Positions 1-58,142 of a DNA stretch of 64,000 nucleotides are shown here, one piece after another. Every line of letters starts with the position of its first letter. The stretch's first letter is position 1. The DNA comes from Amoebophrya sp. A120 (taxonomy: Eukaryota > Protista > Dinoflagellata). The notes beneath the pieces are model-generated. The model saw nothing but the letters and a program-made list of their open reading frames with translations. It did not search any database and was not told where the DNA came from. The stretch spans positions 302,722 to 366,721 of the forward strand of contig CAJINV010000017.1 in the NCBI GenBank assembly GCA_905178155.1, in the 5' to 3' direction. A program made the position numbers and the translations under genes.

Positions 1-143
1 GTGCAAAAGTATCGTATTCGTATAAATGCAAGTCTTGCATCACAAATTTCTTTCTCAAGGTAAATCAGCATTACAAATTTCATTTCTCATGCTGAGAAAA
101 TTTGTAATGCATTTATACGAGTACGATACTTTTGCAGTTCATA
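1..143. mobile_element. Introner-like TIR element, family A (left end cut by window edge)
   Basis: TIR TGCAAAAGTATCGTA.TCGTATAAAT / ATTTATACGAGTACGATACTTTTGCA, ending GTTCATA. Near reverse complement of the element at 56699-56842. Confidence 0.9.
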
Positions 144-3100
144 TGATTGACATCATTTTCGCGCCCTGCTCGCTCTCCGACGCGGCAACAGGGAGTTTGA
201 TTGTCGTGCCCCACGACTTGACGACTTTAAGAGAGGCGTTTGATGGCACAAAGGTGAAAAAGCTGACTTGTTTAATTCCCCAGGGGCCAGTCAATTCAGG
301 CGTCTACTTGCCTCGATTCGCGATTTCGAGACAGATCCTCGCGACAGTCGTTCCTGAGGAGTTTTACGAGACTTTCTTCACGATCAAGATGCCGTCAGAC
401 GTGAAAAACGTCGTGCCGAGCTACGCGCTGATTGGCGAGGGCTACGACAATCAGTACAAGATTTTGGAGGAGGACTACGAGGGCGAGGAAGTATCCAGTG
501 CAAAAGTATCGCACTCGTACTAAAAATTGCAGTCTGGCATGACAGATCCGCTTTGCTACTTGAACCTGCATGACAAATTTCATTTTTCTTTCTGGGAAAA
601 TTTGTCATGCGATTTATACTAAATACGATACTTTTGCAATGCATAGGAAGATTACGAAAACGACTTCGGCTACGCGGACCAGCTCGTCACTGCCTCCGCC
701 GTGCACGTCGATAACAACGCAAGAACTTTCTCGTCCTTATACGACGAATTATCCGCTAAGGAATCCCAAATCTCCAGCGGTCTCTGCGCGCTCATTCCCG
801 AGTCAGAAGCCATGTCCACCTCGATCAACAACGAGCAATTCCGGTGGGGAATGGTGTATGATAACGCGGTGTGCACGGGCCCCCGGCCGATCGACTTAAC
901 CAAAAACGTCTTCCGTTATTCCCCGTCGAAAGACCCATACCGCGATTGGGCGACGTCGAATCTGCGCGTCATCACGATCCGACTGTTCGGGGTGGACACG
1001 ATGACGCCGAAGAGGATCTTGGGTTACAACGCCGACTACACGGTGGAAATGAAGCAGAAAGACACGGATGTAATTTGGTACGACCAGGCGGGCGTCAGCA
1101 AATTGGTTTTCAACGGCAGTAATTTCACGGATGTTGCGACGTTGATCCCAAGTGGGGTGTTCGCCTGTCGCTTTGAAAACTCACTTTTGACAAACGCGAC
1201 CGCTTTGTCCGTTTCCCAAGCGGCTTGCGACATGCCGAAGACCGATTTCTTCCGCGCAAAGGGAAAAATCAAGGTGGATTTAGGGCTGAAGATCGACGAC
1301 GACGCGTTCTACCCAGCGAATGAAGAATCTTTCACGCTGGAAGTGTTGCAGTCGCCGAAAATAACCGCGACAAATCGGTTCATCGTCTACAACACCACGG
1401 CAGACCCGGTACAGCTTATCACAGACGATCAACCCACGATGGACCTGTATGGAAATGCGCACGTGAAGCAAAATCGGTTTTTAACATTGAACCCCTTGAA
1501 ATTGGGCTACAGCTTCATCCTGTACGGGCGGAACTACCCCGCGGCCGAAGATGTTTCTACTGTGCTATGTATCTTCAGGATCGCCGCTGCCGATCCCGTC
1601 AAGGAGTACATCCCGAGCGCGCAGCAACTGTACAAGACGACGGCGGTTTGCTATGCGCAGAAGGTTTGCTACTGTTTGACGCCGAGATTGCACGACAATG
1701 TGATGAAGACGACGACGAAATTGGAGCTGTTTGTGTCGCTCCGGTTTTTGTTTAATTACTACGAACTCACCAATTATCACGACACCAGCGAGTTCCCCGT
1801 GGAAGTGGAGGTATGGCAGACGAATGAGAAAAAAACCACATCTATCAAGTGCAAAAATGTCTGGGTCTGGAAGAATGCATGTTTGTCATGGTTGTCTAGC
1901 ATAACTCTTAAATCTGTCATGCGCGTTACCCAAGAGCTCCATTCTTCTGTGATGCAGAAACGCAGTCTGTCATGCAGAATAGGCAACACCTAGAATCTCA
2001 GAAACTTGTCATGCTGAGCCAGCATTTGTGGCCTCATCATGAGACGCCACCCAGCATCACAAGTTTCCAGACCCAGACACTTTTACATTTGATAACATCT
2101 GCCCCGATTATGTCCTCTATGCAGACGACGTTCACCAGCTCGATCCAGATCCCGTACAGATCCTTCAGGAAGAACAATCTGCAGGAATCCATAACTATGC
2201 ATTGCAAAAGTAACGTACTAGTATAAATTGCATATACAAATTTTGGCAAGAAGAAAAATGGAATTTGTAATGCTGTTTTACCTTAGGAGGAAGATTTGTC
2301 ATGCGTATTTGCAATTAGTACGTGTGCGATACTTTTGCACAGCATAAGAACAAAGTCGCAAGTCCGTCAACCGGTGATCGGCGGGGTGACGCGGAAGATG
2401 ACGACAACAACGCACGACTCGATGTTCGAATCCTACCCGGCGTCCGCGCCACTGAATCTGAGGAAACAGAGGCTCTACGTGAAAGCCGCCGCGCCGATCG
2501 TGGAGTTTCTCGGTTACGCCCCTTACACCTGTAATTTCGAAGACAAAAACTTCGGGTACAACACAAGGAACGTAATCAGGCGCAAGTTGGATCCGAACGC
2601 GACAGACTCGGAGGAAGTCGAGGAGCAGGAAAGAGACATCATCAGAGCGGTTGTTTCCGTCGGTATTGCGGTGGATGACACGAGCTTTTACTGCTTGATA
2701 CCTAGTGTGTCTGAGCCGAAATCAGTCTCGGTGCGCATCATGTCGCCGTTGGGGCGAACGGTGCACCGGATTGATAATTTCATCTACTACGAGCCGCTGC
2801 TGAATGGGGAATTTGTGTTGAACGAAAGGGATTTCGCTGGCGCGACGGAGGAGCAAAAGACGAACCCGGATGTCCCGCTACCGGCAAGAAGCTACAAATC
2901 CGCTTTGTTTATCAATTTCCGGGTGGAAACCCCGACCGTTGCGTACCGGTCACTCAATATGCAGTGCATGTTCGACTTCCGGCACGCGGTTTTCCCGGCT
3001 TTGATCGAATCGGATCGGATTACCTGTGACTGGGACCGCTACGGGATCGACCTCGCTGCGAAATTTGCGTACTTGGACAGACACGATTTGAAGAAGCAGC

Positions 3101-6100
3101 TGAATGTGACCACCCCGAACTTCTTGGTGAATGAAACGCGACTGTTTTCCAGAAGGTTGAGACTCTTGTACGACAACGTGTACGAATCCGAGCAGTTCTT
3201 GGATGTTCCGGTCGATCCAGAAGCGGAGCGGACGAAACTGTTTGGCCCGGAGTTGGAGAAGAAGGACTTGTCTTCCATTGTCGACCCGGTTACCGGGAAA
3301 ATCACGCTCGCGGACGAGATCGAGGCGGCCAAGCCGGTCATGCAAGTCAGCTACTTGGATGCGAACTCGCCCGGTCCGAGGCCGAGCGACCACCACAACT
3401 ACTGCGACTCGGAACTGTTACTCCTGGCCGCGGAGCCGAACAAGGGGCGGATTTTGTCCGGTTTGCAGCAAGTTACTTTGTACTTCGAGTCCGTCGCGGA
3501 TTGGACGCAAGACCCGTCGGACTGCATCATGCGCGGAGAGTATCGTACGAAAAAAGTGTTTCACTGTAAGGATTTTGCAAGTTTGGCATGACAAGTTCGT
3601 TACACATGACAGGGAAAACTTGCCATGCGAGGTTCCTAAGGGAAAACACAGCTAAAAATCGCCTGTCTTGCATGTGTAGCAAGACAAACACTTCTGAGAT
3701 GCAGTTTCTGCATTACAAGTTTACAGTGAAACAGTTTTTTATTGCGATAGAGAGCAGTCGCACCAGCCGGGCGGCGGGGAGATTCGGAGAAGGAAAATCG
3801 CGGGCTGCTTTTTCGACGAGTACTTCGCCCCGGCGGTGGAGTACGCGCGGGATTTCGTTTCGTGTGTCGCGCCGACGGTTTTGATGGCCCACCAAGCGGA
3901 TGTGTTTGTGGCATACGAGTATGAGTATCTGGAAACCGCGGAGGAGTACGAACAGTACATAAAATTCGTGCAGTACAGAATCGAAGAAGAAAAGCAGCTG
4001 GCGCTTTCCGGAAGTGAAAAACCTTTAACCAGGACGGAGAGAAATCGGTTGGCGCAACTGCCGAGCAGGACCAGCATCGTGAAGGGGACTTACGCGCTGG
4101 CCTTTTTCTTCTACGAGGCAGAGACGGTCGAGCAGGTGTATTTGTCGATGGAAAACAAGTTGGTTTTGCAGATGAAGCCGAACCCGTTTTTGCAGTCCGA
4201 CGATTTGTCTGTCCAACTAGGGGATTGGACGGGGGAGAACGTACGGTATTTAGACAACTCGACCTTCGAAGTTTCGGTTCCCGCGCTCGCAAGCTCCTAC
4301 GGGTCCGGGGAAATAAGCGAAGATGCGGATGAGTCTGAGAAGAGTAGTCTTTTTTCCTACAAGGTGCCGGAAGTTTTGGGGATGGACGGAAAGGGCGATC
4401 CGGATCTGCCCTTTTCTTTCTCGAGACAAACGAAACTCTCGGAAAGCCAGCATGGGCTGATGCGCAAGTTCAACTTAACGCTAGACTCGGACCACGTGCG
4501 GTTTCACGACATGCTGATGAACGTGGGGCTGAAGTTTTACTACGTGCCAGTGGATAACGTTGACAACACGAGATACTACGTGAAATTTGATCCTCCACCG
4601 ACGTCGACACTAGGGGGCGGCGGAAGCAGTGTTGGTGGAGGATTTTCTCTCGCTGGAACATCAAGCGATGGTGTAGTTTCTGAGCCGGTGGAAGTTTTGT
4701 TCGTGCGGCAGGCGAAAGAGCAAGAGGCAACCGAACCTGTTTCCAAGCCGCATTTTCTCGACAACGTCGAGCTAGAGTCGGGAACGACGGGCAAGAAGTT
4801 GAAGCTGCACAATTCCACGCTTTTTCAAATTGCCTACAACACGGATTCCAGCACTCTGAAAACTCCCGTTGACGTGATCGAGGTGGCGATTAAACATCCA
4901 GACACCGAGTCGTTCATCTGCGTGGACGAGTTGACAAGTCAGCTGATTCATCTAGAAAATTCCGAAGCCAGGTGCAAGTTCAGAATCGATTTCGTCTTCC
5001 CGACCGCGAAATCCATCGATTTCACCAGTCGCTATCTAGAATTCTTGCGGAACTTCGGGCAGCAGAACGCGGCAAAGGCACTGGAATTTCTCTACACGGA
5101 CGGGGACAAAGTGTTGACGCCTTTACCCGGTAGCTCAAGCAGCACGGATTTCCAGATTTCCGCGACGAAAAAGAAGTACAATGCGCTGCAGCTCCGGGCG
5201 AGCTACAATCCGGTGAACTTCGACGGAACGTACTTCCCTCTGCGGAGTTTCAGCAAGTACCCCTTTATCCGAGAGGCGAAATTCTCGATGGACGGCGGAA
5301 AAATGTTCTTCGCGCCAAACGCTTACGGCCTAGTCGGGAACAGCAACGCCGTATGCAGACTCGGGAATTACGGGCCTTTCCCGGTGGAAGCGGTTTCGGT
5401 CAACGCGACATCATCAACCGGCAGCTCTTCCAGTCGTGAACAAATCACGTACCGAAAGTGCGACATGGCGACGGCGGTGGTGTCTGGGATTCTTTCTGCC
5501 GGCGCGGAGCCGAATTTGGTGGAAGCATCCAGTATCTCCCGATCTGCGTTCTACGGGTCTCGCGCGGCGGGCTTTTACGGGACCACAGTGGATGAATTAC
5601 CCTTCGCCGTGGTGCAGGCTGGGATAAATGCGACGGAGTTTGGAAATTTACTCGACTTCGAGTCCATGGCGGTTTTTGATTCTCGGTTCACGAAATTGGG
5701 AGAATTTATCGTGGAGGAGACGGAGGAAGAGGAAATCGCGCGCAGACAGGCCGAACAGGCGGTGGAAGATGCGAAGACGAACCCGCTCTATTCCTCTACG
5801 TCGACAAGCTCCACGAGCACGACGACGACGACAACTTTACCCGAGGAAAAAAAGCAGTTCTACTCCGTGAACATTCCGTCCGAATCCTGGGGGTCTATTA
5901 CCATCGCAGAGATTGAGCCGAAGTTTGGAAGGCTCGAGGGCGGCACGCCTCTGACCATTCTCGCAAAGCTGCCGTTATTGAACGACAGGATCTCCCCACT
6001 AGCGTCGTTGACTTGCAACTTCGGCAATCTCTACACGACCCCAGTGGACGTGATCGCGCCTACGTTTCCCAACGCATATGCATTGCAAAAGTATCGTACT

Positions 6101-9100
6101 CGTATAAATTGCATTCATGCATGACAAATCTCTTTCTAAACCTGAAAAAGCATTACAAATTCCACTTCTGTTCTTGCCGGAATTTGTGATGCAATTTATA
6201 CTAGTACGATGCTTTTGCATTGCATAACGCAACGAGAATCACGATCAAGAACAACGCGAACGGGAAAACAACGTTTTTGTCGGTGCACCGGAACCCGCAC
6301 AACCTCGGGTCGTTCAATTCGATGGCATCTGTGAACGACTACCCGAGACTAGACCAGGCGTTCTACGACGTCGCGCTTTCCGACCAGGAGCAGGAGTGGG
6401 AGATTGTGACGAAGTCGAGGAATACGGTCGCAAGCCCGATCGACCACTACTATTACTTGTTTCACCCGGAAACGAAGTTGTTCTTACATGTAAAACCGGA
6501 GTTCCTCTACTGTTCGTCCGAGCACGTGTTTGACGGGTTCAAAAACGAAACCGAGCCAACAGTGGTGCAGAACTGCACGACGTACATGCGGGACAACACG
6601 ACTTTAACCGCGTCGGACTACCACTTCGCGATGATTGATCTAGACAAAAACTTCCGAGTTAATACAGAACACCAAACCGAGCCTGATTTCGACGAAACGG
6701 ACGCGTTGTTTGAGTTCCGAATCACGCAAGCCGCTAGTAAACTATTGGGGAACGGGGCGGAGTTCACGATGTTCCACGTGAAAACCAACACTTTCGCGGA
6801 GGCGGTGCACAATTTCTCGACGAACAGCTTTGAACTTTCCGACTACGACAACGATGTCTACAGTCAGCCGCCCTACAAGGCGAACGTCACTTTCGACGTC
6901 GCGGGGTCGGTGCGCGTGAAGCCCAAGAAGCTTGAAAAATCATCCCTACAAACCGGGGGTGTGCAGGATTTTTTCCAACTCAACAGCTTCCTCACTTTCC
7001 AGATGGACATCCGCGAAACCGCCTACCCCTGGTGGTCGGCGTTGCGGTGCAAATCCCCAGCGCACACCGAGCCGGGGGTCTTGCCGATCATCATCTCCAC
7101 CGGTATGGGGGAAGAAACGGACAACAAAAAGATCGCGGACATGATGCAGAAAAGCTTGGGCGCGGACCAAAGCTTCAGTCCCGGCGGCGAGGATGACGAT
7201 TCGCTTGGCGCGGGAATTGTGAATATGGGGAAAGGGGCGTTTGAATATTTGCCAAACTTCTACGTGAAGGACTACTCCCCGAAGCAGCTGTTCGATGTCG
7301 TGCACACCGACTACGAATTGATGCCGATTCGGTACGTCACATTCACGGTTGGCAATCTGGACCAGCCGGGAATGCGGAGCTTGGCAAACAGCTGGACGAG
7401 GTAAGTGAACGATTTGGTTTTTGTTTTTCTTTTCTTGTGGTAAAGTTTATTCACGCGGCCCAACGAATCAAGTAGAAAGAACAAGCGTGTGATAGCATGC
7501 TGGGTAATGTTACTCTGCATGGTATCACGCACTAGATATTGATGTGGTGCGGGTTACTGCCGTGACAGCATCGTGGATAGAGTTACGCAGCACGACACTA
7601 CAGCGATTTTTTTCTCAAACACACGATACCGTCGTGTGACAGATGATGGTGCATGGTGTTAAGGCATCTCTCTTGCAGCATCTCTTTGGCACCATTCGTT
7701 ATTCTTCCAAGTGTATGTCACAAAACAGGTACGAGCCCTGGTGCAACGTCAACACCCTGATCGCCCGGGGCGTCTGGATCGGGCGGGACAAAGTGCAGTG
7801 CCCGATCAAACGAACCTTACCGCTCCTGGGCCGCGCGCGGTTCTTCTCCGAGCCGGTGAAACGCGATCTGACCCCGGTGGTCAAGACCTACATGCAGGAC
7901 CCAGACCACCCCGCGAACTACACAGTTCTGAGACTTCTCCGCGGTCCGACGGTCAAACAGCCCGAACCCTTGTACCGGTTGCGGGACGGGGAGGTTGGGC
8001 CCAGCCGGGATTATTGGGACGACTTCTACGAGCACGAGTCTGAGAAAGCCAACCACGAGTATTACGTGGGCTTCAGTTTGAACGGACCCAACGGGGATTT
8101 TGTGTTCCCGGAAGCGGGGAATATTCGGGAGGAGCAGCTGAAAATAAAAGCCGGAACAGCAAGTGCATCAACTTCATCTGTGGACACAAATAACCCACTG
8201 GGCCTCTACCCGGATTCAGGCACCGGAGCACCCTACGACAGTGAGACCGCTAAACGAGAAGGGGAGGTTTTGTCAAACCCGAAAGAGATTTTGAACATTC
8301 CAGTGAAGAAGTTCTCCGTGCCCTTCGCCGGTACACCTCTGTCGCTCTCGCGTGACGGCGGGCAAATCACTTTGAATGGGTTGGATTGGAACGAGGACCT
8401 GGTTGATCTGTCGCAGCAGGGGGTTTTTCAACTTTTCCTCATCTTCGAATTCTCCATGGTCTCCAACAACTTGCAGAACGAAGAGCACCCTTGTTTCTAC
8501 CTGAACAGGTTGGAAGCAAAGTGCAACCGGCCGTTTATGTACGACGAGGCCTTGCTCCCGACAGTCTCCATCCCACTCACCATGCGGGCGGTTTTAGACG
8601 GGGCCTCGTACCAGTTTGCTTTACCGTTCAATGTCACCTTCGCGGACGTGAACTTGGTCACGAGCGTGTTCCCCAAGTACATCCCGATGGTGCGGGACTC
8701 CGCCGAGGCCTGGCAGTCCTCGTATCCGGTTTCCGACCTGAGTACGCAGCAAACGCAGCTGGTGAAGAGGTCCGCGGACTTCACCCTCTTCGGCGGGCCG
8801 TTCAACGCCTTGCTCCCCTACGTCTGCGTGTGGTTCGAGCCGGACGGGAAAGCGTTAGCCGTGACGAACGTGACGAGCTCCCAACCCGACAGGCTGCTCT
8901 GCAACACGCCAAATGCCTACGTCCCCGGGGACATGGAGGTGTCCGTCTTCGTATTCCCCGCGTTTGAGCTCTTGTCCATGACGACGCTAGAGAGCCCGGA
9001 CTTACGCCTGCCGGACATCTACGAGGATTTAGGCGGTCTGGCCGTGGGCTCCGGGTCCGTTGCGTTTTACTCCGCGCCGGTCGTGACAAGCGTCTACCCC

Positions 9101-12100
9101 GCGAGCTGCGGTCTCGGGAAGGATCTGCAGCTTACCGGGTTGTACTTCGACAGAGTCTATCAAATGTAAAAATGTCTGGGTCTGGAAGCTTCTGAAACTT
9201 GTCATGCACGTTGTGCATGAGCCATGATGTCTGTGATGCATACCCTAGCAAAACAGATTTTTTGAGGGCTTCTTGATGCGTATTCCGCATGACAAAACCT
9301 TCTCAGCGTAGCAAAAATTGCATTCCCTTTGGTACTCATGCAATACAGATTTTTTTGGAATCCACGTGCAGCATCACAAGTTGCAATCTTCCAGACCCAG
9401 ACATTTTTGCAATTCATAAAGTCCCTGATAAGACCAAGATCCACTGCACGTTCAGCGACATCGGGTCGCCGCGAGGAGTATCAAAATGAAAAATCCCCCC
9501 TCCCCATATTGAGACGGAAACTTCTGTTGCTGAATTTGTGTACACAAATCAGCCCTGTCTTGCAGTGAGGCACTACAGGCAAGGCCCCAGCCTGCGTATG
9601 GGTGTTTTGTTGTAGGCTCTTGGCATAAGAGAGGCCTGCCATGTAGGTGAAACAGCATTACAAATCGCCTCCATAAGGCGGCGGATTCTTTGGCTTTGCA
9701 TTCTTGCAAGACAGATGTGATTTGTGACCTCAAATCCGCAACGCATGCAAATTTTTGCAAACATACCTTTTCGATAAGGGGAGGGGGGATCTTTCCTCTC
9801 AATAAGGAGATGCGTACTTGCGGCAAACGCACACGCAGATCGCGACCGAGTTGATCGTCGAGACAATCATCCCGCCGTCGTTTGAGAACAAATTTTCCAG
9901 GCAGGAATCCTACGCGCGCTGCGCCTGCCCGGACCGGGATTTGCTGGGAACGGCCAGCCAAATCATGTTCCAGCTGATGGCGAACGGGGAGCAGTTTATC
10001 TCCAGTCCGCAGATCCTCGGTGTGGAACAGATGCCGTCTTTCTTGAAACTACCGAATTTCGTCGACATGGACATCCCGACCGCTGAGGCGTATCCACCGC
10101 AGTTACTCCAGTACGGGGTGAGCAGCGGCGCTTTGCTGCCCTTGTTTGTCCACCCGTCTTCGAGTTATTCCGGGCCAAGTGGGGAATATTTGAACACCGA
10201 CAAGGAAAAAACACTGTTTTGCCAAGTGGCGAACGTCGCCGGGAGGGTTTTGGCCGTCGACCAGAAATTCGCGACCCAGGCTGGGGAATTCTCCCCCCAG
10301 TCGCTGTTCGGCGGTGCGGCGGCCAGGCATTACTGCCACCTCCCGGTCTTCACGCTGCGGAACCAAACTTTGCCATCCGCCGAAATGTACGCTTCGTTCG
10401 ACGGGGTCACCTGGTTCTTCGTGAACAAGGTAACCGTGAACCCAGCGCCAGTTTTGAAAGAACTTAAAGCTCCTCCGGGCTTAACGGAGGGCGGGTTGTA
10501 CCGACTGGACGAAATGCAGTATGGCGATATCTTCGAAAAGGGCTACATGGAGATCGGCACGGTAATGGGGGAAAATTTCGTCCCGGGGTGCAATTGCTTG
10601 TTCTCCTCCGACTACGTAGCGGATGGTCCGGGGAACCAGATTGTTGATTTGATGGATCAGCAAAAGTACGCCGTGTCGGAGCACTCCACCGTGGTGGACT
10701 CAACGAAAATCATGTGCGCGTTTCCGCCGAAACTCTTCTTCGAGAAGTTCCTGGTGTCCGTCGCCTGTCCGCCGACGACGATCGCGCAAAACTCGCTGTG
10801 GTTTATTCCGCCGAACCGGCTACCGAAAATCCGGCAAATTTACCCGGACTCCCTCGGCGCCTATTTGCAAAACACGATCACCATCTACGGGCACAACTTC
10901 CACAGCTACATTGGGCGCGTGAAGGAGCACATGAAGAACAAATTTGATCAATTGATCCCCAGCAGGGATGACTACAACGCGATGAATTCCCCCTTAAGGG
11001 TTCGCTTTAGTGGCTACCCAATCGGCGGCGACGACAACGATTTCCCGGTGGAAATTGTTTCCGACACGATTTTGCGTGCGAAGATCCATTTCCGGTTCGA
11101 CCCCCCGCCAAGGTTCGTCAAAGCGGGGTTTACGAGGAGAGATTACAACAATCGGGTGCGGGTGACGTTGTTTCTGTCCGACGTGAACCAGGAGACAAAT
11201 TACGTGGAAATTGATGTTAGACGACCCAGTTCCGCGATTTTCGTGGCCGCGAACCCGCTAAGTCTCGCGCCGCAGGTATCGCAAGAAAAAACTGCTTCAC
11301 TGTAAACTTGTGATGCATAGAACGGAACGCAAATGCGTTTGTCTTGCTACACATGCAAGACATCGGATTTTTAGCTGTGTTTTCCAATAGAAAGCACGCA
11401 TACCAAGTTTTCTATTGTCATCTGTAACAAACTTGTGATGCAGATCTTGCAAAATCATCACAGTGAAACAGTTTTTTCGTGGGATAGCAGGGCACGCGGG
11501 ACTACAGTTTGGTCGTCGAGGGGCACAACTTCCACTATACGGATTTAGAGCGGCAACTGGACTTAACGCTAGTTCCCTATCCCTACGTGTGGTGCCGAAT
11601 TGGCGATTTGGTCACGGATGCCTACGTGAAAAACGACACGCGGGTCCAGTGCCGGGTCCCTGCGTCCTTCTCCCAGCAGACGTCAATCCAGATTATCAAC
11701 ATCAAGGAGGGAATTTCCACCCCATTGCTCCCGTTCGAGTACTACAGCGTCCCGAAGAAACTCACCTACAGCTTCAACGAGCTCCCCTACGCGCTGACGC
11801 CATACTCGTCTTTGGCGATTTTTGGCGAGCTGTTTCCGATTGGCAGCAGTGAATGTGAGCTGTACTTTGATTCCATGCCGACCCCGGCGTTGGTGCAGAC
11901 AGTGGAGCTGATGACGGTCACGATCCCTCGCTTCACGTCCGCTTTGCGAGTGACTCTCACCCTGAAATGCGGCGCCGCGCAGATGGGCCCGACGCAGAAC
12001 TTCTACTTCACGGAGAAGCCGGAGTTGTTAGCTGTGTACCCCACGAAATTCAACGTTGAGGGCTATGAGTGGGTCACGCTGCACGGTAGGAATTTCATCG

Positions 12101-15100
12101 ACACCGTGTACTTGACCTGCACCTTTGGCGGAAAGCACGTGGTTTCCGGTCCGGACAATGTCGCGTACCTGAATCCAACCACAGTGAAGTGCCGCACGCC
12201 GGAATTCCTCCCGTCTGATTCGAAAGTCACGATTCAAGTTTCCACGGACGGGGTAGTGTTCAGTAGTTTGTTGGAGAAGACCATGGATCCGGTTTTGAAG
12301 ATTTACAAGGACGCGATGATCCCGCTCACGGCCCGAATCCGCGTTCTCTCCATCGCACCGCGGCTGATCGCGCGCGCAGCGACGACGGTGTTGAAGATCC
12401 GCGGGAAGAATCTGGTCGCGGGGATGTACTGCTTTTTTGAGAATTCCATTACGAGCCCCGCGGTCGTGATCGACCAAAACAACGCGGAATGCACGTTGAC
12501 GGACGAAACAACGGAGTTCGCTTTGCAGTCGCAGGGCGGAACCGCGAAAGTGCAGCTGCAGCTGATTCTACCATCAGATACCCTCCGCTTCGCCTTCTTT
12601 CACGTGGCGGAACATTTATTGTCGGTCAAAGTCCGAGAGCGGCCGATGTTCTACTCGCTCACCCCGTTTTTCGGTTCGACGTATGGCGGCACAGAAGTGT
12701 CCATCAAGGGTCAGAACCTTCTCCCCGACGACGAGCAAGACGCGACAGTGAAATGCATCTTCTGGTTTGGCCGCTACGCATTGCAAAAGCATGACCTTCG
12801 CACACAGTAGAATTCGCATGATGAATTTTTCCACAAGGAGAATGAAAGGAAATTTGTCATGCCGGTTCAGGTATAAGCGCAGGGCAGCGGCAGATCTGTC
12901 ATGTCAGCCTGCAAATTGTACGAGTGCGATAGTACTTTTGCAAAAATCCATATCCTACCAGTGGAGGCGATTTCCGTGAACCAAACGGTGATTACTTGTG
13001 TGACCAACGCGGCGCTGAACCCGACCCAGTCCTGGTCGCAGGAGGTCCAGGTGCAGTACTTGAACAGATTCCTACGCGTCTACCCGTCCGAAGCGCAGCT
13101 AGATCCGCGACCGTACAACGTTTCCACTTTCACAGAGGGCTTCGAAGAACCGATGATGCTCTCGACCGGCTTGAAATTCAACTTCGAGCCGCCACCGGAG
13201 ATCAACACGATCGAGCCGTTAGTTGTTGCGCAGCACGACTACATCCTGGTCGCGGGGAAGAACTTCCTCCGCGCGGGCGTGAAGACGCACATGCGGTGTC
13301 GGTACCGGTTGAAGTTGGACAATCTGAACACGACGGCGGAGCAGGCGCGAGTGTTGCGGATGAATAATGAAGTGTCGGAAACAAAAGTGTTGGCGAACAT
13401 CATCAACCACGACTTGATCCGGTGTAAAACCGTTCTAGTCGGGAACATCACCGTCGACGTGACGATCTCGATCCAGGAGAACCCGTTGCTAGAGTGGTCT
13501 AACAGTAGGGAAATCAAAGTCTACGAGGCGCCGAAGGCTTTCCAGACATTAGACTTGGCGCTGGAAACGGTGAGAAAACAGAAGGAAGCGCAGTTGCAGT
13601 TAGAAGCGAATCAGGCGGCTGGCATAAGTTACAACGTGACGACGACAAGCACTACGACCACCGACCCGTTCCTGCCTCTGAACAACAACACAAACGAGAC
13701 TTTGGCGACTTTGGTGTATCACCAGTCCGTGGAAACGATAGCGGTTGCGATGGACCTGGAGAAATGCGAAGATAATGAATCAGGTGAATGTCTCCGACCG
13801 CCGCCCGGTGGCTTGTTTGCGCCACTTAGCTGCGCAGATTACGCGGCGAAGGGGGGATGCTTCTCTCTAGTCTTCGACGGGTGCTGTCAAAAAACTTGCG
13901 GGATGTGTCCGGATGTGTTGAGTAAGAACTCGCAGAATTTGGTCTGTTTGATTGTCGATCTAGAAACCGATAGAGTTGTCATCGTTCCGAGACGCTCCGA
14001 CAACCTCTTCGGAACCGACGCGCGGGTCACGACAAACATGACGCAGGAGTTAGTGCTCGCGAACTGCCTAACCGCACCCCTTCCTCCCTACAAGAAGTTT
14101 TTTGTCAAAGTGGCGCTGTTATCTCGGAATTATCAAAACATTTTCGAGCGGTCGATGTTCTACCAGGAAAACTTTCACCAGATCTACCAGCAGCGCACGA
14201 ACGACACGAAATTGCTTCAAAACGAGCACGACATCTTCGCGATTGCGGCCACCGGCGGGGCGCCGATGCTGACGTACACCGGGGGCGTCGCGCAATTGCT
14301 GGAGAGAACTTTGTTCCCGAAGTTCGGGCAAGCCGGGACGCCTCTGTTGATCAACGGGGTCGATTCGGCGTATGTCAAGTGGTGTCGGTTCGGTACGCCG
14401 GAACTCGCATCGACGACGCCCGGATCGAGTCCTCCGTGCCTGGAGTGGTGCGTGAACGACGCAGCTAGCACGGTCCCGTATTGTTGCTCGGAGACATTAT
14501 CCTCCGGTGGGAACGCTTTAACCGTAGCCGCGGTCGCCCGCGGGCCGAAGCAGGTGCAGTGTGTCGTTCCGCTTATGCCGCTGCGGTCGAAATTGCAGGG
14601 CAGAGTCCCGCAGATCGACGCGGCGTTCCCGATTTTCTTGGGGTACACAAAGCAAAACCTGTACGACAGCAGGCTGACATTTTACTACGAACCGGACTAC
14701 CAGGTGACGAGGATTACGCCGCAAAGAGGGACGAAAACCGGCGATGTGCCGGTGATGTTGGAAACAACAGCAATCTGGCTTGAAGGCTTCCCTCGACGGG
14801 CCGACTGCTTCTGCAGATTTTCCTCCCCACCCGGACAACCTCTAGTCCACGACTTCGAGCGGCCCGCAACCTGCGACTTCGCGCTCCGCGTCATCAACTG
14901 CACGACGCCGACGGTCCCGGCCCCGACGATTCTGAAGGTGCAGGTGGCGTTGGCGGGGACGTTAGGCGGTTATCACCAGTGGTCAGTGGAGCCCTATGTC
15001 TACTTTGAGTTCTACAACGAGGAAGAGCTTAGCTTCGTCTCCATCTACCCACCACTGGGGTCCTTGCAGGGGAACAACACGGCGGACATCTACGCCACGG

Positions 15101-18100
15101 GGAACTACCCGATCTTGTTCAAGAACTTCTACAAACAAGTGCTCGAACCGTACAAATTGGCGAACAAGGACCCGCTGGCGATTTACGAGACGCAGGAGGA
15201 ATCGGATTTCCCCACCCCGGTGACGTACTGCAGATGGAACAACGAGTACATCGTGATTGCGGAGTTGGTTTCCAGCACACAGTTGATTTGCAACGTGCCG
15301 AGCAGGTTCATGTTCTGTCAGAACAATCTCCCCACCAAGAACGAGTCGCTCATTCTGTCGAAAGACCCCCAGTTCGCGATTCCGGAAGACCCGTGTTACA
15401 ACGGGACGTTGTTCGATTTGGAAATCTCCTTCGCCGGCAATCCGCCGAATTTCCTCCCGATCAACAACTTGCAGTTTATCCAGCACGATCTAGTTTCGTA
15501 CAAACAGGAATTCCAGTTGCGGATCGATCCATTGTATGGGTTCGGTCAGGTGCAGTTGAAAGTCACCGGGTCGAATCTGAAGTCCCTTGCGCCGGAGCTG
15601 CCGAACTGCGTCTGGAACTACGGCACGTACATGACAAGATTGACCGTGTTCAATTCCAGTTACGGCGAGTGCGACGTGCCGTTATTGAAGGACATCATCC
15701 CGTCGCAAGCGGAGTACGACGCAATCGAGCTGCCGCACGACATCAACGTCGACATCACACTGGACGGGGGAGAAACGAGGTCTTACTTCTCGGTGATTTA
15801 CCAGTTCATCGCGCACTTCCAGATTCTCGCGCTCTCCCCGAACCGGGGGATTTGGTCGGGTGGAACGCCGTTAGAGGTTCTCGGGGATTTCTTCATCAAG
15901 TCCCCCCAGCTCTTCTGTCGCTTTGGCAACGTCGAGGTCCCTATCAAATGCAAAAATGTCTGGGTCTGGAAGAATGCGAGATTTGTCATGCTGATCTGGC
16001 ATGGCCCTTAAATCTGTATTGCGTGGCCACAAACAGCCTCTCTCGCCTGTCATGCAATAACGCAGTTTCTCATGCGGAATACGCAGCACAGAAGCACGAA
16101 GCAACTTGTCATGCTTGGCGGCGCATTACACTGCATTTGTTATTGACTGACTTGCATCACAAGTTTCGAGACCCAGACATTTTTGCATTTGATAGTCCCG
16201 GCGGTGTACGTGAGTAGACTGCTCTTGACCTGCGTTGCCCCGGCCTTACCCCGGCCGACCACCGTGGACGGGCAAACGGCGTACCCCTTTTCCTACTCCG
16301 TCGATGCGCAGCGGTTTTTGCCCGCGCTGGACGAAAACGGCCAGCAGATCTTCTGGTACGCGATGGAAGAGCCGGTTTTGGACTTGATTAAGCCGGACAT
16401 CGGGCCCTACACGGGTGATACGAATGTCACGATTAGAGGAAAGTTTTTCCAAGACGTGTCCTACCTGTCCTGCAGCTTCGGGGTGTTCATCACACCGGCG
16501 TTTTACGTGAACGCGACGGCGGTGCAGTGCGTTGTGCCGCCGTGTAAGGACGCGTTTGGGACTTCGATCTCTATGACGGACAACGGCTTTTTCCAGGCCT
16601 GTTTCGGAACCGTTGCAGTGAAATTGACCATGAATCAAGAGGAGTTCTACGGAAATCTCACCTTCGAGTACACGAACCGGCAACGGATTTTACAGGTGTA
16701 TCCCTGGTCGACTTCCTTCGAGCCGATCGACTTGTTCGTTTTGATCAACGGAACGAATTTCGCCGAGGAGGGCATGTACTGCCGGTGGTCGACGCCGGAC
16801 GGGTCGCATTTGGACCCGGTGAAGGCGGTGGAAGTGCAAAAAGAGTCGATGCGGTGCCGGGTGCCGGGGTTGCCGCCAAAGTACCAGATCGACACATCGA
16901 TCGTGCAAGCGGGGTCCGCCGGCGCGATTCACGACACCGTGATTGGGTACTTGGAGATCTCGCCCAACCCCGACCAGGACTACACGCGGGACCGACTGCC
17001 CTGGACCTGGTACCGACCGGCCATCGTGAAGAAGGTGATGCCGGAGACGGTGTACCACGGGAAGCCCGTGCAGGGGGCTTTTGTGATTACCGGAAGACAT
17101 TTTAGGCGGTTGGACGCGGAACGGGAGCTGCAGTGCCAGTGGTTTGCGGACGCAACAAACCCGGCGAACTACGAGTTGGTGCAGGCACACTACCAATCGC
17201 CGACGGAGGTCCGGTGTCAACCGACGCAGGCGGTGTATTCTTCCACCGGGTTGGACATTTCGCAACTGAATGTTCCGACGAGGATCGAGGTCGGCATGTC
17301 GCAACTAACCTACTCCGTTTCGCAACACACGGTGATGGCTGAGCCATTTGTCGATTTAGTGCACCACTACGAGCCGAGTCCGATCAACCCGCTGATTCAG
17401 ATCCAGTTCCCGGCGTTAGATTTCGACTACGACAACTTGAACCTCGGGGGAGCACCGAGGTGTATCCACCTCGGGGGGTGCACGCTCGGGTTGCGCGGAC
17501 ACAATCTCTGGAACCCGATGCTGAACCATCTGAATAAGCTGTACGTTGTCGTCGGGGACACAATTGTAGAGGCCAGGCACTGGTTCGCCTACCCGTACGG
17601 CTCCAGACGGAAGTACGCGACCTTCAAAGCGCCGCCGGTACCCCACAGGGCCGATTTGGCGAGAAACGCCGCGGTGTTTGTCACGAGAAACTTGCAAGAT
17701 TTGTCCACCGCACGGTTCGATTACAGGATAACGTACGTGAAATTAGATGCGGGGAAGTACTACCGGCCGGAATTGCAAAACGGAACCGCGATTCCCTGTC
17801 CCCGTGGTCACTACTGCGAGGGGGCGCTGCAGACGAACTTCTCCGAGTGGCTGGTGCCGCCGACCGAGCCGCTGCCCTGTGCGTCCGGAACGTTTCAGAA
17901 CTTCACCGGGCGGGGCGACTGCAAGATCTGCGAGGAGGGGACGACCTGTCCGGAAACCGGGATGGGCGAGCCGATCCAGTGCGCCGTCGGCTACATCTGT
18001 TGGACGCGGGGCGGCTGGGACGCCGCGATGCCACTGTGTCCGAGCGGAATTCTGTGTCTCCGTCCGCCTTACGGGAAGTCTTCGCTCTACATCGCGACGA

Positions 18101-48945: not shown

Positions 48946-49047
48946 GTTTTGCTTGTCTGAGCGTGTTCATTTTTTTGCGCCTTTTCTTCCCGAATTCGAG
49001 TGCCTTTTTTTGCGCCACATTCTGCTTTTTTGAACAACAGAAAATAC

Positions 49048-50435: not shown

Positions 50436-53131
50436 ATGCTTTTGCTTGGAGCAAATCGATCGTCTCTCGTCCTTGGGAGTGTTTGCTCTCTCTACTCCTA
50501 CGGCGTGTTTGCAGATGCCGCAGGTCCGGTGGCGGGGGTCGATGGGCGTCAACGACGGCCGCGCTCCACCTCACCAGCGAGTGGGACGCGCAGCAGGACT
50601 AGGGCCCCGGCGGACCGAGACCCCACGGGACCGGGCCCGCGCGCCTCCAGCGCCCCGCCAGCACTGGACCGCCATCATCTTGGATGGGTATCTGATGTGC
50701 CGCTGCAGTTCTTTTCTCTTGCCGGCGGACCCCTGGCAGACTTGGGTGAGCTCTCGCCGCACCAGTGGTCACAATGGAGTTCGGCAGAGCTTTACCACCA
50801 TGTGGAGACCGTGCTATTACGTGCCGAAAAGCTTCCCTGTAAAATGGTCGACATTGTCTTCCGTAATGGTGCCGCAACATCAACTCCTGTTATCCTACCT
50901 CGTCGGGATGTCTCTCGGAATCTATCCGCAGTAAAAGCGTCGCTGCGATCCCCAGGGTCGTGTGGTCCAAATCTGCATCCACAGCATCAATCTCTCACGT
51001 GAAACAAGCCCTATGAAGAGAGATGTTCTTCTAAATGGTACAGTTTAGGATTTGTCATGCTCAAATCAAGACCAGCACAAGCTGCAATGAAGTTGAAGTG
51101 GCTGTGCTGGCTCCGTGATCTGTCCCGCCTCGCGCAAACTACCAAATACGACCACCCTGTAGACACCCAAATTTCTCATGCATGTCTCCCGCGACAGGCA
51201 CGGCAGCTCGGCGACTTGTTTTGCCCTTTGCTTCTCATCTTGACCACTTAGGTGGGGACCGACGAGCACACTTTTACACCGGATAGAACGGAGCTCCGCT
51301 TTTGTTAGCAGAAGTGTTGCGGGAGGATATTGTGCGAAGTGGAACTACCAGGGCAGCACAACCCCACCAACTCCATGTCGTCGCTCTGAGTGGGGGCAAC
51401 AAGCCTTTCCCCGATCGGGGGAGGTATCAAGTGCAAATATGTCTGGGTCTGAAGATGAAAATTTTGGATCAGACAAAAATCTATCTGTCATGCATGAAAG
51501 GCAATTCACCTGATACACAATGTCTCGCCCGCAGTTGTAGCACAGTCTGTTTATGTCATGCATGACAGGCAAACACGCAGCAAAATCTGGGATTTCTCAT
51601 GCGGGATAGGCATTCATTGAGAAAGCTCCTCAAAACCTGCGATGCGATTGCTTGCACGCCAAAGCTTGTGGGTAATGCAAAAACTAAAACAGCATGACCA
51701 GATCCAGACAGAAACATTTTTGCAATGCATAGGAGGCTCGCTGATGCGATTGATCTTTGGCGGGTTGATGGTCCTCATTACTTCGATGACGCGAAGAAAG
51801 TGGAGGGGCGTCGCCGCATCGTTGCCGAGTTCGGCGATGTAAACGAGTGGAATGTCTGCCTAGTCAAGAACATCGGCTTGTTGTTCTCTGAGCTAGATTG
51901 GCCGCAGTTCTTTCATCCGACCTTCAAAATTTCGAAGTGGTACACACGGGGCGTGCGCAAAATGGAGGGAGTCTTCCGTAGTGCTGTCAACTTCAACGAA
52001 GACATCAGTGCGTGGGACGTCCAGGACGTGGTCAGCGTATGGCATTCTCAAACTTGGCTACGTTGGTCGTTCTTGATAGTATTTGTCATGTAGAAGGAGC
52101 ACCATCAGCATCACCCTTCACGCGGTCTAGCTTCCTCGCATGGCGCAAATAAGCCCTCGACGGGCTAGTAAGAAAATAAATTTGTAATTAGCACTGGAAT
52201 CCGTTGTTTCAAATCTGTAATGCAAGACACGCAACATCATGCGGATGCGTCCAGTCCTTGGAGCCACCGCCCCCCTTTTTGTTTTGGCTTTTCCTTTTGC
52301 TACAGCTAGTGTTGCATAAAACTACATGAGTCCGCATGTAACATCGCCGACCAATGTAAAAACATTTGAGAATGCCACATAGCATGCGGGGAATGTTTTC
52401 AGGCGCGGAGCACTTCAATCAGCCACTTGGACCTTGGAAGGTGGGCGCTGTGCGAGACATGAGCTTTATGTTTTCTGGTGCTAGTGCTTTTAACCAGGCC
52501 TTGAATGAGTGGGACGTCAGCAATGTTTTGACCATGGAGAGCATGTTTGGGAAAGCTAGCGCCTTCAACCAAGAAGTCAGCAAGTGGAACGTCGTCAGGG
52601 TGCGCACTATGGCCGGCATGTTTCGGGAAGCGGATGCCTTCAATCAGTCGCTTGCCGAATGGGGGGAAAAAATCGGGCTGGTCGATCCTGGGCCCCAATA
52701 TGCACATCGCTGGGACGTGCGTGCCACTGGAATGTTTTTTGATGCCAGGTCGTTTATCCTGTGCAAAAGTATCGTACTTACTCGTATTGCAGTCATGCAC
52801 TACAAATCTTTTTCTTACGGTGATTTCGCATTACAAATTTCATTTCTCATGCTAAGGAAATCTGTAATGCATTTATACGAGTGCGATACTTTTGCAGCGC
52901 ATATCGTTCAGCCAAAGTTTGGTGGCTTGGGATGCGTGGATGCTGAAACAGCACCGCCGGAACCCAAACGTCTTCTTCGGAATGCTGCAGGGCGCTGTGA
53001 GTTTTGTCCCAGCGGAGCAATTGACGGAAAATCAGAGGAACATTATGCACAAAAGCTATGGCTACGGGTACGGCATCAACCAGGCCGGCCGCGTCGACCG
53101 CGTCGCCGCGGACCAGCTGCCGGATGTGTGA
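50436..53131 (+). CDS. DUF285/PARCEL (bacterial surface 25-26-residue repeat) protein with putative signal peptide (5 exons)
   Basis: Repeats FNQxLxxWDVSxVxxMxxMFxxAxA. Exons 50436-50922, 51291-51424, 51737-52037, 52385-52754, 52909-53131 join in frame. The N-terminus is hydrophobic and ends VFA-DA. Confidence 0.8.
50923..51285. mobile_element. Introner-like TIR element (singleton family G)
   Basis: Imperfect TIR TATCCG..GTAAAAG.GT...CG.TCCCCA, flanks GAATC/GAACG, frame restored. Confidence 0.78.
51425..51731. mobile_element. Introner-like TIR element, family B
   Basis: Perfect repeat GGAGG. Removal gives DRGR-LADAI. Confidence 0.88.
52038..52379. mobile_element. Introner-like TIR element, family F-related
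   Basis: TATGGCATTCTCAAA / TTTGAGAATGCCACA (terminal TA changed to CA), flanks CAGCG/TAGCA. Restores the DUF285 repeat WDVQDVVS-MRGMF. Confidence 0.82.
52755..52903. mobile_element. Introner-like TIR element, family A
   Basis: Perfect repeat TCGTT. Removal restores ARSF-SQSLVAWD. Confidence 0.9.
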
Positions 53132-55341: not shown

Positions 55342-58142
55342 ATGTCCCGAGAACAAGTAATGAACCGCCAGCATCTCCTGGCGCATCGCTCCATTTCCTG
55401 CTGCATCGGCGGCGGTGGCGCATCAACTTCCCGCGGCGACAAAAACAATCCAAAGCCCGAAGGCGAGGCTCAGCCCAAAGAAAAAAAAGATCTTGTCGAT
55501 TACGACAGCAACAACCTCCCGATCCCGCCGGTTGCCGTCGAGCGGCCGGAAACCGTCACGATCGGGTTGGTGGAAAACGAGGATCGCGGCCCGAATCCAA
55601 TGAACCCGCCGAAGACGAAGACTGACAACTACTTCTGGCTCCGCGATGACAGCCGGACGAGCGAGGAAATCTTGCTGCATTTGAAGAAGGAAAACGCGTT
55701 CACGGCCGCGAAGACGAAGGAGAACAAAAGTTTGGAGAAGGAACTGTACGACGAGCATCTGTCCCACCTGAAGCAGACCGATCAGCGGCCGGCGTACGCG
55801 CACGGGGAAAGGTTTGAGTACTACACGAGGACAGTCGAAGGGCTGAGCTACAAGATCCACTGCAGAAGGCCGATCGGGTCATCAAACGTAAACGCTGAAA
55901 AATCCCCAGACGGCACGGATGAAGAGGTCTTGCTTGATGAGAACAAAGTTGCAAAGGGGCAGTCGCAGTGCGACATATGCGTGGTAGCGGTGTCGCCGTG
56001 CCACGAGTACTTGGCGTACTGCGTGGATTTTTCGGGAGACGAAGTGTACCACTTGCGGGTTTTGAAACTCGGCGCAGGAGCTGCAGGAAGTCCAAGCGAC
56101 GGTGAGCAGCATGTCTTGATCGACGAGCTACTGAGCCGCACGGGTGAAGGAGCTACTGCCGGCGAAGATGAAAATGCCGACGCTCCTCAAGGTGACCCAG
56201 CGCCCCCCGGAACTCAGCACCTGATCTGCGGCAACATCGTGTGGGGAGCGGACAGCAAGGAGATCTTCTACGTGACGCAAGACCCGGTGACCCACCGCCC
56301 GAACAAGATGTGGAGGCACAAGATCGGTGAGAAGAACGAAAACAGCGAGGCCAAAGACCCTCTGTTCGAAGAGAAGGACCAGCTGTTCATTCTGGATATC
56401 AGCAAAACGAAAGACGGAAAGTTTCTTCTGCGGAACAGTGCGAGCAGCGAAACCAGCGAGGTTGCCGTGATGCCACTTGAGAAAAGCGGTAGTGATGCCG
56501 ACGCGACAATCGTCCACAGCCGGGAGTTTGGTCTCCGCTACGAAATCGAGCACTGGGAAGGGTATGTGATCGCGGTGACAAATTACGACAAAGCCAAGAA
56601 CAACAGGGCGCTGGTGAAGAAAATAATTGGAACTACAGCAACTTCATCAGTGCTCGAGACTACGCCAGATTTTTCCGCCGCGAACGATTGGCAGGAACTA
56701 TGAACTGCAAAAGTATCGTACTCGTATAAATGCATGACAAATTTCCTCAGCATGAGAAATAAAATTTGTAATGCTGATTTGCCTTGACAAAGAAATTTGC
56801 AAGACCTGCATTTATACGAGTGCGATACTTTTGCACAGGATAGGAACTGTTCCCCTACGACAAGCTCCGGGAAATCACGTACGTCGAAGTGTTTGAAAAT
56901 TTCCTGATGTTCGAGGGCAGGGAAAACGGCTTGACGAAGATCTGGTCCTTCGACATCAAGCAGTTTACAACCAGTTCTGGCACCGCAACTCATCATCTTC
57001 AGCCGATTGACACATCGCTCTTCCCCGAGCCCGACATCCACGAGATCCACTTTTCCATCAACAAGAATTACGCCACAGATTTCGTCCGACTCGTGTACAG
57101 CTCGTTGGTCACGCCGACGACCTGGTACGAGTACCGCCCGCTGGAAAAGAGTTGCAAAATCATCCACGAGGAGCCCGTGTCGAACTTCGATAAATCGAAG
57201 TATGACACGACGCGGGTGTTCGCGACGAACGGGAAGGATGGGTGTAAAATTCCAGTTTCTCTCGTCTGGAGCAAGGAACTCTGTCCCGATGTTAGGGAAA
57301 GGCTTTATAATAATTCCGGTAGTTGTACTACTAGCAGTGCCGCAAAATCCTATCCCCTCCTTCTCTACGGCTACGGGTCGTACGGCGCGTGCGTCGACCC
57401 GGGCTTTGACCGAGACGTGCTCACCTATTTGGACCGGGGCATCATCTACGCCATCGCGCACATCCGTGGGGGCGGGGAGATGGGACGAGAAGTTTGGTAC
57501 GAGGAACAAGGGAAATACTTGACGAAGAAAAACACCTTTGAGGACTTCATTGCCTGCGCCGAATTCTTGACGAAACCCGGGGGCGAAGATGAAGGTAATA
57601 AAACTCTAGCGCCTTTGACGACCCCATCCAAACTTGCCATCGAAGGGCGGTCCGCGGGTGGGTTGCTGATTGGCGCGGTGTTGAACATGCGGCCGGATTT
57701 ATTCTCCGTGGCAGTCGCGGGTGTGCCGTTTGTGGACGTCTTGACCACCATGGCTGATCCGAGCATACCGCTGACAATCGGTGAGTGGGAAGAGTGGGGA
57801 AACCCAAATTTGGAAAAGTTCTACGAGTACATGAAAAGCTACTCGCCGGTGGACAACGTCAGCTCCGGTCTGCGACAGGAAGAGGTGCAAGTGGAGGTGG
57901 CGGGCGGAGAAACGCGTCAGTTGACGACTGTCCTGATTCTCGCCGGCTTGCACGATCCGCGGGTGGCGTACTGGGAACCGGCAAAGTGGGCCCAGCTGCT
58001 GCGGAAGGAGAAAACGCGGTTTGGCGACGTGTTGCTCAAAGTGGATTTGGAAGTGGGGCACTTCTCAGCCAGTGACAGATACCGGCACATCCAGGAAACC
58101 AGCTTTTCGCAGGCGGTGGTGGTGAAAAAGTTGACGCAGTAG
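55342..58142 (+). CDS. opdB: Oligopeptidase B (peptidase S9A), 2 exons; start uncertain (ORF open from 55003)
   Basis: N-terminal DNYFWLRDD..ENA, then YGYGSYG and RGGGEMG, catalytic GRSAGG, HDPRV and GHFS. Exons to 56698 and from 56848 join as DWQE-LFPYD. Confidence 0.92.
56699..56842. mobile_element. Introner-like TIR element, family A
   Basis: Perfect repeat GGAAC. Near reverse complement of the element at 1-143. Confidence 0.92.

What the first reader, a model, noticed from the sequence alone, without database searches (positions are those of the whole stretch)
1..56842. 31 TIR + 5-bp-duplication elements act as precisely removed non-canonical introns
Seen: 31 elements of 144-363 bp in about 8 families, each inside a coding exon, with TA...TA ends (one CA) and TIRs. 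Of 30 complete copies, 20 have a perfect 5-bp flanking repeat, and deleting element+5 nt restores the frame in all 30, including within conserved SNF2, oligopeptidase B and IPT motifs. Only two (11277, 51425) can be read as GT-AG. Eight with perfect repeats (ACATC, ACGCA, CTGCG, CGTTT, TACTT, CCGGT, AACGA, TCGTT) offer no AG acceptor in any register. Established: inverted/direct-repeat introner elements and a majority of non-canonical introns are reported in Amoebophrya, with the mechanism unresolved to my knowledge. Inference: MITE-like transposons are neutralised by a structure-guided removal system that coexists with the GT-AG spliceosome (6-7 ordinary introns here).
Basis: partly seen in the sequence, partly recalled or inferred. 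Interest (0 to 1): 0.92.

Follow-up and report, generated by a model that had tools for sequence, protein, structure and literature searches.

The report
Transposon introns without GT-AG ends
Thirty-one small transposon copies interrupt four genes of a marine parasite (an Amoebophrya), and where RNA-type sequence covers them they are missing together with exactly one copy of the 5-base repeat they made on landing, mostly without normal splice signals; this intron class is already published, and it is likely removed by a loosened spliceosome, though that is untested.

Summary
In detail: 31 elements (30 complete), all in coding exons, 20 of 30 with a perfect 5-bp repeat, and element+5 nt opens all four genes. 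They match the published introner elements of Amoebophrya A120 (Farhat 2021). Contigs of one run (RNA by guess) skip element+5 at 3 of 11 complete elements laid, two with no GT-AG reading; the other 8 showed no joint. A related strain's assembly gives 178 of 235 perfect 5-bp repeats and 7 of 7 empty-site comparisons differing by element+5. Imperfect repeats suggest the cut lies 1 or 2 nt before the terminal TA, so the 'variable splice sites' in print may be one fixed geometry laid on random target sites. One site (30186) favours +2 by homology. A loosened U2 spliceosome is somewhat more likely than a separate structure-guided system; neither is shown. Possibly new: at 2 of 2 sites shared with the relative, position and repeat are kept but the element body differs (about 68-74% identity; exons 96-100%). 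The scan noted similar introns earlier in other protist genomes.

The parts
1..143 (.). element, cut by window start (150-bp family)
492..645 (.). element, repeat GGAAG perfect
1843..2094 (.). element, ACATC perfect, no AG in any register
2196..2346 (.). element, ATAAC/AGAAC
3541..3749 (.). element, GAGAG perfect
6077..6226 (.). element, ACGCA perfect
9158..9418 (.). element, GAGTC/AAGTC
9479..9804 (.). element, AGGAG perfect
11277..11486 (.). element, GCAGG perfect; contig joint skips 215 nt (210+5); GT-AG readable
12775..12952 (.). element, GCCGC/TCCTA (degenerate)
15942..16194 (.). element, GTCCC perfect; contig joint skips 258 nt (253+5); no GT-AG reading
18659..18822 (.). element, GATGA/ATTGA; contig joint skips 169 nt (164+5) and keeps the first two upstream repeat letters
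23937..24215 (.). element, CTGCG perfect
24269..24529 (.). element, GGGGC/GGGGG
25008..25332 (.). element, CGTTT perfect; +5 best in 26 of 26 homologs
26005..26159 (.). element, CGTGT/GCCGT; homologs favour Val over Pro (cut at repeat position 3 or later)
26548..26679 (.). degenerate element or odd intron, AAGAA/AAGGA; uncertain
26840..27081 (.). element, GAGGA perfect
27140..27424 (.). element, CGCGG/TGCGG; +5 best in 17 of 17 homologs
29874..30130 (.). element, TACTT perfect
30186..30509 (.). element, CCGGT perfect; homologs favour +2 (18 of 20), the main counter-example
41559..41837 (.). element, GAAAG perfect
43042..43303 (.). element, TGAAG perfect; site empty in the relative, which has its own 325-bp element 13 nt downstream
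44095..44357 (.). element, AGAAA perfect; same site in the relative holds a body only 68% identical
44953..45103 (.). element, AACGA perfect; site empty in the relative (156 nt absent)
45194..45337 (.). element, CCGAG perfect; same site in the relative holds a body 67% (74% inverted) identical
50923..51285 (.). element, GAATC/GAACG
51425..51731 (.). element, GGAGG perfect; GT-AG readable
52038..52379 (.). element ending CA, CAGCG/TAGCA; conserved DUF285 Met needs the fifth repeat letter from the downstream copy
52755..52903 (.). element, TCGTT perfect
56699..56842 (.). element, GGAAC perfect
1..33324 (+). host gene 1: giant IPT/TIG-domain, Cys-rich, membrane protein (over 8,200 aa, 5' end outside the window); 21 elements and 4-5 ordinary introns
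40211..45452 (+). host gene 2: SNF2-family helicase, 5 elements, one GT-AG intron (44438-44611)
50436..53131 (+). host gene 3: DUF285 (BspA-like) repeat protein, 4 elements

Best explanation
These are the A120-type Amoebophrya introners: non-autonomous transposon copies that made a 5-bp target duplication and are missing with exactly one copy of it where RNA-type contigs cover them, likely because a loosened U2 spliceosome is positioned by their shared terminal motif rather than by GT and AG. Shown: insertion with a 5-bp duplication, no target consensus, both orientations tolerated, removal of element+5 at three sites. Inferred: the signal is the symmetric end (TA[T/C], about 7 variable nt, AAA); the 5' cut lies 1 or 2 nt before the TA and the 3' cut 4 or 3 nt after the closing TA. 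A cut 1 nt before gives N-U-A donors like the G-U-A of all six ordinary GT-AG introns here. The published diversity of splice-site pairs would then be random target letters seen through one fixed geometry. Untested: which machine cuts, and which transposase moves them.
For: 5-bp duplication: 20 of 30 here, 178 of 235 in a related assembly, 7 of 7 empty-site comparisons best at +5. Removal: 3 joints, all +5, in contigs with 0 mismatches and depth rising toward the 3' end; +5 wins a majority of homologs at 10 of 17 scorable sites. Register: at least 2 from the joint at 18659; at least 3 from 26005 (28 homologs, no Pro, 1 Ala) and from the relative's own SNF2 element (Phe as in the window); at most 4 from 52038 (Met in 106 of 120, Val in 0). 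For the spliceosome: A25/A120 keep 83 of 89 spliceosomal proteins but U1 snRNA was not found (PMC7789003), whereas U1 was found in a GT-AG-only Amoebophrya (PMC12005148); a U2 spliceosome handles non-GT/AG transposon-derived introns in Fritillaria (PMC11282704, PMC13326754); outer stems are imperfect and show no G-U excess.
Against: No G is enriched just before the TA (11 of 30 here, p 0.27; 26 of 90 in the relative) and AG at the matching acceptor is rare (2 of 30; 13 of 90), so both ends would break normal spliceosomal chemistry more than in Fritillaria. A branch point would have to exist on both strands; none was identified. 30186 favours +2 (18 of 20 homologs) and 26548 favours +11 (9 of 11, low-complexity tract). 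Register 3 versus 4 is unresolved, and a single fixed register is assumed from four different sites; Farhat et al. call the splice sites variable. Only 3 joints, each from one contig of one run whose RNA status is a guess; no GT-AG joint and no DNA run were seen as controls. In the relative only 90 of 132 oriented elements fit the +5 frame class (noisy phase calls, chance one third).
Confidence: 0.55

Rival explanations
1. A separate nuclease-ligase system reads the terminal hairpin and makes staggered cuts around it, beside the GT-AG spliceosome, as suggested for euglenid nonconventional introns.
For: Orientation does not matter (the 150-bp family is about half in each orientation); flanks have no consensus; 28 of 30 elements are predicted to pair 10 or more terminal bases; euglenid introns with TIRs and TSD-like repeats leave circles, not lariats (PMC11282704 passage).
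Against: Positions 4 and 7 of the stem pair at chance level; A-C mismatches are not rarer than G-U; 26548 and 51425 fold little or no terminal stem; apparent U1 loss tracks with these introns across Amoebophrya strains.
Confidence: 0.33
2. The elements are cut out of the DNA in part of the life cycle (like ciliate eliminated sequences; recalled analogy), or the laid contigs come from DNA of an element-free allele.
For: TA ends and precise loss; run X1 is only guessed to be RNA and no DNA run was laid; empty DNA sites exist in a relative.
Against: X1 pieces are identical to the window over 434-1046 nt while the relative differs by 2-4%; depth climbs toward the gene's 3' end; an old element with a decayed repeat is also skipped; the published genomes with long DNA reads retain the introns (PMC7789003).
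Confidence: 0.05
3. Ordinary GT-AG splicing at nearby sites removes most of them, with small changes in the protein.
For: 14 of 30 have some frame-keeping GT-AG within 15 nt of the ends, five of them at +2.
Against: 16 of 30 have none, including two with observed joints (15942, 18659); at 11277 the joint is +5, not +2.
Confidence: 0.03

Closest known systems
Introner elements / non-canonical introns of Amoebophrya sp. A120 (Farhat et al. 2021, PMC7789003; 58 A120 families in Gozashti et al. 2025, PMC12130899)
   Same: Inverted repeats starting TAT + 7 nt + AAA (25 of 30 elements at one end or both); 3-5 nt direct repeats; mean removed length 237 nt versus 240 reported; family lengths near 149, 208, 252-260, 278, 305, 320-340 bp in the 22 of 58 dataset rows read; nearest named SNF2 relative is A25 at 51%.
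   Different: Print describes variable repeat lengths and variable or unknown splice positions; here one rule (element+5, cut at repeat position 3 or 4) fits nearly all sites. In-place change of the element body between close strains was not found in the passages read or in search.
Non-canonical introns of Fritillaria borealis (PMC11282704, PMC13326754)
   Same: MITE-like origin with TIR and TSD; non-GT/AG ends alongside ordinary introns.
   Different: Ends there are restricted (AG-AC, AG-AT) and U2-spliceosome use has experimental support; here the end letters look unconstrained and the machine is unknown.
Euglenid nonconventional introns (via PMC11282704 passage)
   Same: TIRs near both ends, TSD-like repeats at junctions, no GT-AG, mechanism unresolved.
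   Different: CAG/CTG stems and a pyrimidine-purine junction bias there; excised as circles. Here TA-ended, 5-bp repeat, excised form unknown.
Canonical introners of Micromonas, Aureococcus, Symbiodinium, Polarella (PMC11282704; bioRxiv 2020.10.14.339549)
   Same: DNA-transposon-derived introns using the target duplication.
   Different: Those supply or co-opt GT/GC/GA and AG sites; most of these cannot.

Membership tests
Amoebophrya A120 introner elements | 8-20 nt inverted repeats at both ends starting TAT, 7 variable nt, then AAA | tested here: met
   Strict motif at 23 of 30 5' ends and 23 of 30 3' ends, 25 of 30 at either (definition)
Amoebophrya A120 introner elements | 3-5 nt direct repeats over the exon-intron boundaries | tested here: met
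   20 of 30 perfect 5-mers, mean match 4.4 of 5
Amoebophrya A120 introner elements | repeated across the genome in families | tested here: met
   5 multi-copy clusters in the window; 23 of 31 have near-full-length matches in a related assembly
Amoebophrya A120 introner elements | removed from RNA at non-GT-AG ends | tested here: met
   2 of the 3 joints have no GT-AG reading; run is RNA by guess
Amoebophrya A120 introner elements | host is strain A120 | tested here: inconclusive
   Amoebophrya, not A25 (51% identity); A120's own proteins were not returned, no genome held
MITE (non-autonomous TIR DNA transposon) | short, TIRs, no coding capacity, fixed-length target duplication shown by empty sites | tested here: met
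   132-363 bp; 7 of 7 empty-site comparisons best at +5
MITE (non-autonomous TIR DNA transposon) | autonomous partner with the same ends and a transposase | tested here: inconclusive
U2 spliceosomal intron | GT/GC donor and AG acceptor | tested here: not met
   GT-AG at +5 in 3 of 30 and at most 4 of 90 per register in the relative
U2 spliceosomal intron | lariat and snRNP dependence | not testable with these tools
   needs lariat sequencing or inhibition
Euglenid-type nonconventional intron | conserved terminal stem under selection; circular excised RNA | tested here: inconclusive
   Stems predicted in most but no sign of selection for pairing; no end-to-start joint, which would not be expected in such contigs anyway

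The most novel reading that the evidence does not exclude
All these introns obey one ruler: a machine indifferent to GT and AG cuts 1-2 nt before and 3-4 nt after the shared transposon end, and because any family member fits, element bodies are swapped in place by homology-directed repair while intron position and target repeat persist, so intron positions outlive their sequences within a few percent of exon divergence.
Probability: 0.35. Interest if true: 0.8.

Novelty: already known. Interest (0 to 1): 0.5.

Why it matters
How Amoebophrya A25/A120 remove over 60% of their introns without GT-AG is an open question in print. The window reduces it to a testable rule: fixed length (+5), two candidate registers, signals confined to a symmetric end. 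If a spliceosome does this it tolerates any letter at both ends, beyond the tunicate case; if another machine does, it is a second splicing system. Either way insertion into exons is nearly free, which explains tens of thousands of copies. The close relative offers a way to measure gain, loss and in-place replacement.

Tried and rejected
No whole genome is held, and the relative's contig could not be extended, so the strain comparison rests on one 3-kb locus. No RNA holder was listed as such. Runs X6-X8 did not cover the exons. RNA coverage was obtained only for window 1-20000, so the sites most informative for register (24269, 26005, 26548, 27140, 50923, 52038) and the outlier 30186 have no RNA evidence. 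A homolog search with exon 24537-25004 found nothing among proteins up to 2000 aa; the strain's own annotated proteins never appeared. No match to the end motif in viral contigs. Table S4 of Farhat et al. lists nine top A120 pairs all starting N-T, which suits register 4, but I set it aside: 13 of 20 perfect repeats offer a GT and 12 an AG in some equivalent register, so aligner preference could produce it. The internal GCATNACAA-type motif (83 hits inside elements, 13 outside) was considered as a branch point and rejected as unproven: its orientation near the 3' end differs between families. The excess of TAC at 5' ends in the window (5 vs 0) did not repeat clearly in the relative (4 vs 2). 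Mismatch position within repeats was flat in the unoriented set. My first reading of 43042 as a same-site replacement was wrong. A strict first orientation pass kept only 17 of 235 elements (16 fit +5) and was replaced.
Full report
Observation. Scans for inverted ends and flanking repeats gave 30 complete elements and one cut by the window start. All 30 start TA; 29 end TA and one ends CA. A perfect 5-bp flanking repeat is present in 20 of 30 and no repeat of 4 or 6-9 bp in any; chance is 0.0013 per pair. All 31 lie in coding exons of four plus-strand genes, none in about 15.6 kb of non-coding DNA (p about 5e-5; gene ends approximate); two other genes have none. Removing element+5 opens all four frames. 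For 14 of 30 the length class is forced independently of neighbours and all 14 fit; the 26548-27140 cluster depends on a GC-AG intron that I chose to fit.

What it is. The closest named SNF2 relative is from Amoebophrya sp. A25 at 51% identity, and the giant gene has dinoflagellate homologs. Farhat et al. 2021 (PMC7789003; I read the abstract, passages, sections 10-12 and 16, and supplement parts 2, 3 and 5, no figures) describe A120 introners whose inverted repeats start TAT, seven variable letters and AAA, with 3-5 nt direct repeats and a mean length of 240 nt, and call the splice position variable or unknown. Here 25 of 30 carry that motif and the mean removed length is 237 nt. Gozashti et al. 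2025 (PMC12130899; passages and 22 of 58 A120 dataset rows) list families of matching lengths, mostly as TIR DNA elements of unknown superfamily. The window is therefore A120 or a close relative and the elements are the published class.

Removal. Laying four runs on window 1-20000, which holds 11 complete elements, gave joints across 3, all in run X1 (RNA by guess, one contig each, depth 2.5-8.2, listed pieces without mismatches, depth rising toward the 3' end): 215 = 210+5, 258 = 253+5, 169 = 164+5. The last two have no frame-keeping GT-AG nearby. The other 8 showed no joint; X6-X8 did not cover exons. Against homologs, 17 of 30 sites could be scored with six or more sequences: +5 won a majority at 10, a plurality at 3, tied at 2, and lost at 30186 (+2, 18 of 20) and 26548 (+11, 9 of 11). 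Twelve sites had too little coverage and 56699 was not tested.

Insertion. A motif scan of metagenome contigs returned 176 loci of one assembly (the scan stopped early, about 680 stretches estimated). Of 235 elements detected without using the repeat, 178 have a perfect 5-bp repeat. Locus L021 is the ortholog of the SNF2 gene. Sites 43042 and 44953 are empty there, it has one element the window lacks, and a tandem gene pair (L010, L012) adds four more cases; all 7 fit +5 best. Target letters show no consensus.

Register. Imperfect repeats show which copy stays. The joint at 18659 keeps the first two upstream letters. At 26005 homologs have bulky hydrophobic residues, no Pro and one Ala of 28, favouring a cut after letter 3 or later; the relative's own SNF2 element needs the same to give the window's Phe. 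At 52038 the DUF285 Met (106 of 120 aligned homologs; 1497 of 1662 repeats, Val 10) needs the fifth letter from the downstream copy. If one register holds throughout, it is after letter 3 or 4. Register 4 makes N-U-A donors, like the G-T-A start of all six GT-AG introns here. Evidence separating 3 from 4 is weak and mixed (26548 leans 4, one homolog at 12775 leans 3).

Mechanism. The signal must be symmetric, since both orientations occur. Most elements can pair their ends, but positions 4 and 7 pair at chance level and A-C mismatches are not purged relative to G-U (25 vs 8 in the window, 62 vs 36 in the relative; per element 11 vs 3 and 34 vs 20, not significant alone), which points to recognition of the terminal sequence more than of a perfect stem. 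A25 and A120 keep nearly all spliceosomal proteins but U1 snRNA was not detected, while an Amoebophrya with GT-AG introns has U1 (PMC12005148, passages), and Fritillaria uses an altered U2 spliceosome for such introns (PMC11282704 and PMC13326754, passages). I put a loosened spliceosome at 0.55 and a separate nuclease-ligase at 0.33. Against the first: no enrichment of G before the TA and AG in only 2 of 30 and 13 of 90. Searches for a mechanistic study returned none; subscription journals are not covered. The Roy et al. preprint (passages) does not mention Amoebophrya.

A possibly new point. At both sites shared with the relative (44095, 45194) the position and 5-bp repeat are identical but the bodies are 68% and 67% (74% inverted) identical, whereas exons are 96-100%, the GT-AG intron between them 90% and the 3' non-coding DNA 97%. 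Each copy has closer relatives elsewhere (86-93%). The replacing body is of the same size family both times, which suits homology-directed replacement after a break (like P-element replacement in flies; recalled, search found no paper). Independent insertion at hot spots is the rival: the two strains also have separate insertions 13 nt apart, and L021 was fetched because of the 44095 family motif. Two cases only; search found nothing on it.

Verdict. Real, precisely described, and already known as a class. What is added is a single +5 rule, a narrowed cut position and a hint of in-place turnover. Earlier notes of this scan on similar introns in other genomes were not tested and did not change the reading; none exist for this genome.

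Noticed in passing
L021 versus window 44095 and 45194: Same insertion site and repeat in a related strain, but a different element body of the same size family, one best matched in inverted orientation.
   Followed up: partly
window 27730-29580: Tandem array of about 368-bp higher-order units built from 83-101-bp repeats, inside a 1,999-bp GT-AG intron (27671-29669).
   Followed up: no
window 31228-31634: AT-rich repeats of about 41-75 bp inside the GT-AG intron 30685-31912.
   Followed up: no
window 47900-49600: Intergenic stretch dense in inverted and direct GTGACACGCA-type repeats and a 66-bp hairpin at 48021-48159; perhaps another mobile element or a structural site.
   Followed up: no
window 1-33324: Giant protein of over 8,200 aa with IPT/TIG domains, Cys-rich repeats and a C-terminal membrane region, with homologs in dinoflagellates; resemblance to apicomplexan cysteine-repeat modular proteins is recalled, not tested.
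   Followed up: partly
run X6 on window 9158-9188 and 9370-9408: About 50 RNA reads carry this family's ends with a foreign flank, i.e. an unremoved copy at another locus, in a run that does not cover the window's exons.
   Followed up: no
window 26005-26159: All three repeat mismatches create a GT-AG reading, yet that reading would put Pro in a membrane helix; possible drift toward canonical ends or chance.
   Followed up: partly
window 34980-38627 and 58600-63574: Two long genes (one with a weak cyclin match) carry no element, unlike their neighbours.
   Followed up: no
all element families: An internal GCATNACAA-type motif recurs in both orientations in otherwise unrelated families; a candidate transposase or host-factor site.
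   Followed up: partly
L010 and L012: Tandem gene copies about 90% alike differ at four element sites, so insertion has continued since the duplication.
   Followed up: yes
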